Origin: Ostreococcus lucimarinus
Taxonomy: Eukaryota
Assembly: GCA_000092065.1 (NCBI GenBank)
Contig: CP000586.1
Reading direction: 5' to 3' (one strand)
DNA: 64,000 nucleotides
Below, piece after piece: positions 1,565-3,757 of this stretch. Position 1 is the first letter of the stretch, and each line of letters starts with the position of its first letter. A program made the translations under genes and the position numbers. The notes below the pieces were generated by a model. That model ran no database searches, was not told the DNA's origin, and saw nothing but the letters and a program-made list of their open reading frames with translations.

Positions 1565-3757
1565 ATGACGAACGACGACGGCGACGGCGACGACGACGAC
1601 GACGCGCCCGAGGACGTCATCGAGGAGTACGACGGCGAGACGAACGACGCGGGACGCCCGCACGGGGAGGGATACGCGTGGTACGCCGACGGCACGGAAT
1701 ACGTGGGAGGATTCGTGGACGGCGCGCGGAGCGGCTACGGAAGGCTGTGGCTCGCGAGGGACGAAGACGAAGATTACGACGAAGACGACGATGTTCCGAA
1801 CGCGTTTTACCTCGGGGAATGGAAGGACGATCGACCGCACGGTAGGGGCATACAGGTGTCGCGCGACAAAACCTGGTTGCAGGGAAATTTTGAGAGCGGG
1901 GAGTTGCGAGGGGAGGCGTATTTGTCGACGCAGGTTTCCATTGGGGACCCTCGGTACATGGGCGAGTTCGGCGACGACGGCGCGTTCGGGGGCGTGGGGA
2001 CGATGTACAACCGGTGCGGCGGGCGACTGACGGCGAATTGGAAGGAAGGTGACATCGCCGCCGGGTTAGCGGTGTGGGAAGGTGACAGCGCGCGCAGGCG
2101 CGAGTCGACGGCGGTGGTGGCGTGGACGCGAGAGAGTTTCGGAGACGCCGAACGAACGGGAAAGTGGACAGATTTGGTCGCGCGAGGCGCGGTGGTGGTG
2201 CGTTTTGTAAATGTGGATACGTCTTATGAAGCGGGTTGCCGTCATAGACCCGAGGTGCGCGAATTTCTACGCGCTTTGAATGCCGTCGACGCTCGTCCTG
2301 GTTCGAGCGTACGAGCGGCCATCGAAGCCAGCGCGGTGGCGAGGAAGGCCGTCGAATTCGACTACGAAGCAGACGTTGCGACGACAGACTTATTGGCGAG
2401 CCTTACGTTGGCGCGCTATGTCGAGAGCTTGCGTGTGCGTGTGAGCCGAACGGCCCCGCTCGAAGTGCGTGCGACAGAAGACATGCATCGGCACGCCGTC
2501 GTCGCTTTTTATTCTGGCACCGTCGGTGAAGTCCGCGGCGTTTCTGCGAGCGACGCAGAGCGTCTCGCGAGCGATGCCATCATGCTTCGCGAGGAGGACG
2601 ATGAGGACACTCAAGAGATCGTGGCCGAGTACGATAAAGATCGGAGTAGTATCGCATACGCGCAGTCTCACGGCGTGCGCGTGATCCATCTCGACGTCGG
2701 CGCGGACGCGCTCTGCGCGAATTTTGTTCGCGTGGAGACGAAACACGAAACGAATTGCGAGCGCATGTTCTTCGAAAACCATCCCATCTTTGGCGATGCG
2801 GTGTTTCTTAGAACTAAAAGGTGTATAGCGAAGGACGAGGAGTTGACGGTCGCGCCAGACTACTTTTTCGGTTGGTGCTTAGACCCGTTGAGTGAGGCGG
2901 GCTATTACGAAAGCATGCGTTGTCATCCACCAGAGGTGATATTTGAGAGAGACAACGACGTCCTCGAACTCGGTCGCGTGACGGTGAAGCGACACGGCCG
3001 ATGGCGAGCGCTATACCTTGGGAATGTTGAGCAAGGATTGTCGTACGCGCCCACCGACGATGCGCCGCCGTCGCACGAAGTTCTCGGGTTTCAATACATC
3101 CGAGCGATGGCGATCGCCACCGTTGACCGCATCCGCGCCGAGAGACACGCCACGAAGTCGACGTCGATCGTCGCCGTCGGTCTCGGCACTGGTGCGCTAC
3201 CACTGTATCTGGCGAACGCACCCGACTTGAACGTCGACGTGGTCACCGTCGAATGCAGCCAAGCGGTCATCGACGCGTGCGCGGCTATCCACGTGCCTAT
3301 GCGCATAATCGATCGCGAAGGAAAATCCTCCGGAATCCCCGCCGCGAAGAAACGACGACGTTCGCGTTCGGAGCCGTCGCCGATTCGCGTCCACCGCGCA
3401 GACGCCTTGGACTATTTCCAGCGATGCATCGCAAAAAATATCACAGACAATCGTGTGGCGTCCGTGGACGTCGTCTTGTTGGACGCGTACGACGGCGACG
3501 GCAAAATCCCCGAGCGCGTTCGAGACGACTTCTTCATTCGATCCGTCGCGAGCTCGTTATCGCCCGTCGGCTTTTGCGTGTGCAACTGTTGGGACGGCCC
3601 CATAGGTTCGGAGGCCTACCACGAACTCCACATGTTCTCCAATCTTTTGGATCGTCACTTTTCGCTCATCGAGCGCGTGAGCGTGGTGGGTCAAGAGTAC
3701 AACGTCATTTTAATAGCGTCGCGCGCTCGGGCTCCCGGTGAGCGTTTGCGTTTGTGA
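1565..3757 (+). CDS. Multidomain protein: N-terminal MORN repeats, central SET-like region, C-terminal spermidine-synthase-fold (METTL13-like) SAM methyltransferase domain
   Basis: ATG at 1565 (gtcATGacgaac). MORN-like units HGEGYAWYADGTEYVGGFVDGARSGYG, YLGEWKDDRPHGRGIQV and YMGEFGDDGAFGGVGTMY. SET-like C-terminus FFENHPIFGDAVFLRTKRCIAKDEELTVAPDYFFGW. Methyltransferase motifs IVAVGLGTGALPLYLANAPDLNVDVVTVECSQAVIDACAA and VDVVLLDAYDGDGKIPE match the METTL13 C-terminal domain. Confidence 0.6.
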   Translation: MTNDDGDGDDDDDAPEDVIEEYDGETNDAGRPHGEGYAWYADGTEYVGGFVDGARSGYGRLWLARDEDEDYDEDDDVPNAFYLGEWKDDRPHGRGIQVSRDKTWLQGNFESGELRGEAYLSTQVSIGDPRYMGEFGDDGAFGGVGTMYNRCGGRLTANWKEGDIAAGLAVWEGDSARRRESTAVVAWTRESFGDAERTGKWTDLVARGAVVVRFVNVDTSYEAGCRHRPEVREFLRALNAVDARPGSSVRAAIEASAVARKAVEFDYEADVATTDLLASLTLARYVESLRVRVSRTAPLEVRATEDMHRHAVVAFYSGTVGEVRGVSASDAERLASDAIMLREEDDEDTQEIVAEYDKDRSSIAYAQSHGVRVIHLDVGADALCANFVRVETKHETNCERMFFENHPIFGDAVFLRTKRCIAKDEELTVAPDYFFGWCLDPLSEAGYYESMRCHPPEVIFERDNDVLELGRVTVKRHGRWRALYLGNVEQGLSYAPTDDAPPSHEVLGFQYIRAMAIATVDRIRAERHATKSTSIVAVGLGTGALPLYLANAPDLNVDVVTVECSQAVIDACAAIHVPMRIIDREGKSSGIPAAKKRRRSRSEPSPIRVHRADALDYFQRCIAKNITDNRVASVDVVLLDAYDGDGKIPERVRDDFFIRSVASSLSPVGFCVCNCWDGPIGSEAYHELHMFSNLLDRHFSLIERVSVVGQEYNVILIASRARAPGERLRL

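What the first reader, a model, noticed from the sequence alone, without database searches (positions are those of the whole stretch)
1565..3757. Unusual fusion: MORN repeats + SET-like region + METTL13/spermidine-synthase-fold methyltransferase in one 730-aa ORF
The three parts normally occur in separate proteins. A MORN array usually mediates membrane or protein binding. The SET-like C-terminal signature is FFENHP...EELTVAPDYFFGW. A second, class-I SAM methyltransferase domain resembles the eEF1A-lysine methyltransferase METTL13 C-terminal half (GLGTGALP...VDVVLLDAYDGDG). A protein combining two distinct methyltransferase folds with a MORN targeting module is uncommon and may be lineage-specific.
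Basis: partly seen in the sequence, partly recalled or inferred. Interest (0 to 1): 0.55.

Follow-up and report, generated by a model that had tools for sequence, protein, structure and literature searches.

The report
SETD7-like protein fused to METTL13-like methyltransferase
This is a real, conserved algal gene that joins a SETD7-type module (MORN repeats plus a SET domain that seems to have lost its catalytic residues) to an intact spermidine-synthase-fold methyltransferase; the combination has not been described, but its parts are known.

Summary

The interpretation needs three corrections. First, MORN+SET is simply the architecture of SETD7, so only the C-terminal addition is unusual. Second, the fusion is not lineage-specific. 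Collinear full-length relatives occur in Ostreococcus tauri, in two haptophytes (Pavlovales sp., Prymnesium parvum) and in many unnamed marine eukaryote contigs. Third, the SET half looks catalytically degenerate here. The GxG loop, the NH dyad (His297 of SETD7) and the catalytic Tyr are absent in all 12 Mamiellales-type proteins, yet intact in about half of the haptophyte-type relatives.

The class-I half keeps every cofactor and catalytic residue tested. It has Thr where aminopropyltransferases need Asp/Glu, so it should use SAM rather than decarboxylated SAM.

Best reading: a protein N-methyltransferase whose SETD7-derived, very acidic front half docks a basic substrate. The substrate is unknown. 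This is a new variant of known kinds, of moderate interest.

The parts
1565..3757 (+). Complete 730-aa ORF (ATG to stop) encoding the tri-domain protein
   Evidence: Eleven full-length homologue clusters. Same neighbours (SAP/DUF4057 upstream, PNK3P downstream) in the window and in locus L001.
1565..1618 (+). Acidic N-terminal tail (aa 1-18, net charge -10); no obvious targeting peptide
1619..2209 (+). MORN beta-hairpin array (aa 19-215; about six MORN-like repeats, with an acidic insert at aa 63-80; net charge -17), equivalent to the N-domain of SETD7
   Evidence: Pfam MORN above cut-off. Profile matches MORN1 at 9e-19 and the SET7/9 N-domain at 2.8e-6. AlphaFold strands and Foldseek hits to MORN1. 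Charge.
2210..2413 (+). Poorly conserved helical inter-domain segment (aa 216-283)
   Evidence: Mean pairwise identity 0.39, 1 of 68 columns invariant. Low pLDDT.
2414..2863 (+). SET7/9-like SET fold (aa 284-433), apparently without catalytic motifs
2456..2464 (+). P298-L299-E300 at the position of the SET AdoMet-binding GxG motif (AGLGLF in P0082, AGEGLF in SETD7)
   Evidence: BLASTP, MAFFT and hhalign alignments. Residue numbering.
2735..2740 (+). E391-T392 at the spacing of the SET NH dyad (N296-H297 of SETD7). The alternative hhalign register puts F387-V388 there; neither register supplies a His
   Evidence: H297A abolishes SETD7 activity (PMC12410342).
2855..2875 (+). P431-D-Y433-F-F-G-W437: a shortened post-SET loop. 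Pro sits where SETD7 has catalytic Tyr335. W437 aligns with the PxW motif of the SETD7 C-terminal segment
   Evidence: Role of Tyr335 and the post-SET loop from PMC9062083.
2864..2944 (+). SET-to-7BS junction (aa 434-460, GWCLDPLSEAGYYESMRCHPP...), the most conserved stretch of the protein
   Evidence: 84% mean pairwise identity, 14 of 27 columns invariant. The E-x-G-Y-Y motif also starts the stand-alone C-module family.
2945..3124 (+). N-terminal beta-subdomain of the spermidine-synthase fold (aa 461-520), with invariant W480, Q490-G491 and Y511
   Evidence: Foldseek aligns about 275 columns to full-length spermidine synthases. Invariant columns over 45 sequences.
3125..3724 (+). Seven-beta-strand (Rossmann) methyltransferase core (aa 521-720)
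3179..3202 (+). Motif I, G539-L-G541-T542-G543-A-L-P. T542 replaces the Asp/Glu of the aminopropyltransferase GxG(D/E)G motif
   Evidence: Alignment to METTL13 VGLGGGSLP and to spermidine synthase IGGGDGG. Criterion from PMC10349129. G539/L540/G541 are invariant in 45 sequences.
3251..3253 (+). E563 (Post I acidic residue), equivalent to METTL13 Glu524
   Evidence: alignment (VEID). Nearly invariant. Glu524 is required for activity (PMC6109062).
3401..3403 (+). D613, equivalent to METTL13 Asp551 (bonds the adenine amine)
3482..3493 (+). Post II motif D640-A-Y642-D643. D640 corresponds to METTL13 Asp575 and spermidine synthase Asp173. D643 corresponds to spermidine synthase Asp176
   Evidence: alignments. 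D640 invariant, D643 nearly invariant. Roles from PMC6109062.

Best explanation
The ORF is one gene for a three-part protein methyltransferase. The front two-thirds (acidic MORN array plus SET fold) is homologous to the whole of SETD7/SET7-9. The last 290 residues are a complete spermidine-synthase-fold seven-beta-strand domain of the METTL13-C / 3gjy type. The two halves are joined by an extremely conserved junction, and AlphaFold predicts them to pack rigidly.

Shown: the fold assignments; conservation of the fusion across green picoalgae and haptophytes; loss of the SET GxG, NH and catalytic-Tyr signatures in this lineage; retention of all cofactor and catalytic residues in the class-I half.

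Inferred: the class-I domain is the working catalytic centre. It uses SAM rather than decarboxylated SAM, because Thr542 replaces the obligatory acidic residue. It transfers methyl to a primary or N-terminal amine held by D640, D643 and Y511. The two characterised methyltransferases of this fold, METTL13-C and fungal NHMT, both modify protein N-termini.

Also inferred: the SETD7-derived half no longer methylates. It serves as an acidic docking platform that presents a basic protein substrate, with eEF1A, histones or ribosomal proteins as candidates. Ancestral or haptophyte versions with intact SET motifs were probably true dual-site enzymes, analogous to METTL13.
For: Single gene: the ORF is uninterrupted in 11 clusters at 41-99% identity. 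The junction is the best-conserved segment (84% identity). Flanking genes are syntenic.

SETD7 homology: Pavlovales P0082 hits SET7/9 at E=1.6e-33 over both the MORN-like and SET parts. The window protein is collinear with P0082 over aa 73-724 (E=9e-35). hhalign between the two SET groups gives 98.5% probability.

SET decay: GxG becomes PLE, NH becomes ET, and Tyr335 becomes Pro or is deleted. Counts are 0/12 NH, 0/12 ELTVxY and 1/12 GxG in the Mamiellales type, against about 11/21 intact in the haptophyte type. H297A kills SETD7, and Tyr335 lines the methyl-transfer channel.

7BS intact: G539/L540/G541, D640 and A641 are invariant, and E563, D613 and D643 nearly invariant, in 45 sequences averaging about 30% identity. 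These map onto METTL13 G503, E524, D551 and D575.

SAM rather than dcSAM: GxG(D/E)G is GLGTG here.

Acidic front half: net charge -27 over aa 1-215. The SETD7 MORN surface binds basic partners.
Against: No biochemical data exist for any member. Loss of canonical motifs does not prove inactivity. The SET segment is still well conserved within Mamiellales (22% of columns invariant, including ETNCER, ENHP, EE.TV and Y433/W437), so a divergent active site is possible. The alignment around the NH dyad is ambiguous: two registers appear (vs 60). I could not inspect model coordinates or dock SAM. METTL13 Asp577 aligns with Tyr642, not an Asp, so substrate handling differs from METTL13. The N-terminal-amine target is extrapolated from only two characterised relatives. 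Single-transcript status was not tested with RNA data.
Confidence: 0.6

Rival explanations
1. True dual methyltransferase. Both the SET domain and the class-I domain are active in this protein and modify two sites, for example a lysine and an N-terminus, on the same substrate. This would be functionally analogous to METTL13 but built from SET plus 7BS.
For: Both folds are present and conserved. The SET region has 33/150 invariant columns within Mamiellales, including Y316 (= SETD7 Tyr245), Y433 and W437. Relatives with fully canonical SET motifs exist in the same fused family (P0081, P0082, P0085, P0089, P0090, P0093 and others). The dual enzyme is therefore the likely ancestral state.
Against: In all 12 Mamiellales-type proteins the GxG loop is deleted or replaced, the NH dyad is [E/D][T/A/N], and the catalytic Tyr position is Pro or deleted. 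The His-to-Ala change alone inactivates SETD7. The Pfam SET score is below threshold.
Confidence: 0.25
2. Polyamine aminopropyltransferase. The C-terminal domain makes spermidine-like or long-chain polyamines, as the 'spermidine synthase' label given to cluster members by JGI/IMG implies. The front half would target or regulate it.
For: The domain has the full two-subdomain spermidine-synthase fold. Its Post II D-x-x-D pair sits at the positions of spermidine synthase Asp173/Asp176. Q490 and Y511 are conserved in the N-subdomain. Source annotation reads 'spermidine synthase'. NCBIfam PRK04457 gives a weak hit.
Against: The acidic residue of GxG(D/E)G that binds decarboxylated SAM is Thr542, and it is T/S/A/G throughout the family. 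The best sequence matches are METTL13-C and 3gjy (E about 1e-11), versus 1e-3 to 1e-4 for genuine spermidine synthases. The window protein has no Pfam Spermine_synth hit. The NCBIfam score of 33.9 bits is far below the 304-bit cut-off.
Confidence: 0.07
3. Annotation or assembly artefact: two adjacent genes (a SETD7-like gene and a methyltransferase gene) read through as one ORF, or a chance long ORF in GC-rich DNA.
For: GC-rich DNA here produces many long spurious ORFs on other frames. No RNA evidence was examined.
Against: The same uninterrupted ORF occurs in at least 11 clusters down to 41% identity, and in haptophytes. The supposed boundary is the most conserved part. AlphaFold packs the two halves with pTM 0.84.
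Confidence: 0.02

Closest known systems
SETD7 / SET7-9 (human KMT7; PDB 1n6c, 1h3i)
   Same: The N-terminal MORN-type beta-sheet domain is followed by a SET domain, in the same order. It is the best solved SET match by sequence and structure. The front domain is acidic and implicated in binding basic partners.
   Different: The window protein lacks the GxG loop, the Asn-His dyad (His297) and Tyr335, and has a post-SET loop about 12-15 residues shorter. It continues into a 290-residue class-I domain where SETD7 ends.
METTL13 C-terminal domain (MT13-C; PDB 5wcj), the eEF1A N-terminal methyltransferase
   Same: A spermidine-synthase-like 7BS fold. Motif I is VGLGxGxLP, with no acidic residue in GxGxG. 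The Post I Glu, the adenine-binding Asp and the Post II Asp575 equivalent are all conserved. It is part of a protein carrying a second methyltransferase-type domain.
   Different: The partner domain is SET/MORN, not the MT13-N 7BS lysine methyltransferase. Asp577 corresponds to Tyr642, and the Post II motif is D-A-Y-D as in spermidine synthases. Identity is only about 21%. The window protein keeps the N-terminal beta-subdomain of spermidine synthases. The substrate is unknown.
3gjy / PRK04457-type 'probable spermidine synthase' of Corynebacterium glutamicum (uncharacterised)
   Different: It is a bacterial stand-alone protein of unknown function. NCBIfam membership is not met (33.9 vs 304 bits).
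Fungal NHMT (AN4663), the N-terminal histidine methyltransferase of LPMOs
   Same: A spermidine-synthase-annotated 7BS domain in which a non-acidic residue replaces D/E of GxG(D/E)G. It is fused to a non-catalytic targeting module and acts on a protein N-terminus.
   Different: Its partner module is a seven-transmembrane domain. No direct sequence comparison was made here.
Spermidine/spermine synthases (e.g. 2o06, 6qmm)
   Same: The overall two-subdomain fold, the Post II D-x-x-D pair, and conserved Gln and Tyr in the N-subdomain.
   Different: Thr542 stands in place of the dcSAM-binding Asp/Glu, and sequence similarity is much weaker (E 1e-3 to 1e-4).

Membership tests
MORN repeat (PF02493) | Profile match above the curated cut-off | tested here: met
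   25.3 bits vs 22.5 cut-off. All 12 family members match, best E=5.4e-15.
MORN repeat (PF02493) | Array of beta-hairpins forming an extended sheet | tested here: met
   AlphaFold strands across aa 19-214. Foldseek E about 1e-11 to MORN1 structures.
SET domain / SETD7 family | SET fold | tested here: met
SET domain / SETD7 family | Pfam SET profile above the gathering score | tested here: not met
   13.3 bits vs 22.4 for the window protein. Relatives P0079 (25.5) and P0082 (30.5) pass.
SET domain / SETD7 family | MORN-type N-domain immediately upstream of SET (the SETD7 architecture) | tested here: met
   SET7_N hits in relatives. Architecture of SETD7 from PMC8949485.
SET domain / SETD7 family | GxG AdoMet-binding loop (AGEGLF in SETD7) | tested here: not met
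   P298-L-E300 in the window, and deleted in most Mamiellales-type proteins.
SET domain / SETD7 family | Asn-His dyad (N296-H297); H297A is catalytically dead | tested here: not met
   E391-T392 by MAFFT and BLASTP, F387-V388 by hhalign. No His in either register. 0/12 members have it.
SET domain / SETD7 family | Catalytic Tyr after ELTV (Tyr335) in the post-SET loop | tested here: not met
   P431 occupies the position, or the loop is deleted. Y433 lies two residues later.
SET domain / SETD7 family | Lysine-channel Tyr245 equivalent | tested here: met
   Y316 in AFYSG aligns with SFY245NG. It is Phe in some orthologues.
SET domain / SETD7 family | Lysine methyltransferase activity | not testable with these tools
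   Requires biochemistry.
METTL13 C-terminal domain (MT13-C) type N-terminal methyltransferase | Spermidine-synthase-like 7BS fold | tested here: met
METTL13 C-terminal domain (MT13-C) type N-terminal methyltransferase | Motif I Gly (G503) and Post I Glu524 (required) | tested here: met
   VGLGTGALP aligns with VGLGGGSLP, and E563 with the Glu of VEID. Invariant or nearly invariant. Roles.
METTL13 C-terminal domain (MT13-C) type N-terminal methyltransferase | Asp551 (adenine) and Post II Asp575 (required) | tested here: met
   D613 and D640.
METTL13 C-terminal domain (MT13-C) type N-terminal methyltransferase | Post II Asp577, which contacts the substrate N-terminus | tested here: inconclusive
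   It aligns with Y642. The next residue, D643, matches spermidine synthase Asp176 instead.
METTL13 C-terminal domain (MT13-C) type N-terminal methyltransferase | Paired with the MT13-N 7BS lysine-methyltransferase domain (full METTL13 orthology) | tested here: not met
   The N-terminal two-thirds are MORN + SET. No second 7BS domain is present.
METTL13 C-terminal domain (MT13-C) type N-terminal methyltransferase | Methylates the eEF1A N-terminus | not testable with these tools
   Requires biochemistry or mass spectrometry.
Spermidine/spermine synthase (aminopropyltransferase) | Two-subdomain fold with an N-terminal beta-subdomain | tested here: met
   Foldseek gives about 275 aligned columns to 2pwp, 2o06, 1inl and others.
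Spermidine/spermine synthase (aminopropyltransferase) | Acidic residue in GxG(D/E)G that binds decarboxylated SAM | tested here: not met
   GLGTG has T542 at that position. It is T/S/A/G across the family. Criterion from PMC10349129.
Spermidine/spermine synthase (aminopropyltransferase) | Curated profile cut-offs (Pfam PF01564, NCBIfam PRK04457) | tested here: not met
   No PF01564 hit. PRK04457 scores 33.9 bits vs a 304 cut-off.

The most novel reading that the evidence does not exclude
Marine green picoalgae and haptophytes share an undescribed family of bipartite protein methyltransferases, assembled independently of METTL13 from a SETD7-type lysine methyltransferase and a spermidine-synthase-fold N-terminal methyltransferase. 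Within this family the SET half has repeatedly decayed into a pseudoenzyme, completely so in Mamiellales. The decayed half now serves only to recognise the substrate for the 7BS half. This would be a natural series running from dual enzyme to enzyme-plus-pseudoenzyme.
Probability: 0.35. Interest if true: 0.6.

Novelty: new variant of a known kind. Interest (0 to 1): 0.45.

Why it matters
Covalent fusions of a SET domain with a seven-beta-strand methyltransferase have, as far as my searches show, not been described. METTL13 is the textbook dual methyltransferase, but it joins two 7BS domains.

This family offers three things. First, it provides new members of the tiny set of spermidine-synthase-fold methyltransferases, where only METTL13-C and fungal NHMT are characterised and both act on protein N-termini. 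Second, it is a natural experiment in which the SET partner is intact in some species and degenerate in others. That could show how pseudo-methyltransferases arise and what they are kept for. Third, it corrects public annotations: JGI/IMG labels cluster members 'spermidine synthase', and NCBI labels the O. tauri orthologue only 'MORN motif'.

The gene sits in ecologically dominant picophytoplankton, so the modified substrate may matter for their translation or chromatin biology. None of this touches a long-standing open question, hence the moderate score.

Tried and rejected
1. Full-length AlphaFold with the 12-sequence alignment left the SET region unresolved (pLDDT below 50 for aa 268-508). 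This was solved by adding distant relatives.
3. The afdb50 fold library was unavailable.
The closest named orthologue is O. tauri XP_003079909.2, at 43-49% identity.
5. My first hhalign run used a wrong cut of the canonical SET set; it was repeated correctly.
6. Literature searches for the fusion found nothing.
7. A profile search for named or characterised homologues of the C-module returned only 'hypothetical', 'spermidine synthase' or 'SAM-dependent methyltransferase' labels.
8. A regex for the Post I motif was too strict and is not used as evidence.
9. Rejected: chance ORF or merged genes; genuine spermidine synthase; METTL13 orthologue (no MT13-N domain).
10. The UniRef name 'Calmodulin-lysine N-methyltransferase' on the Prymnesium homologue was not followed up and is not relied upon.
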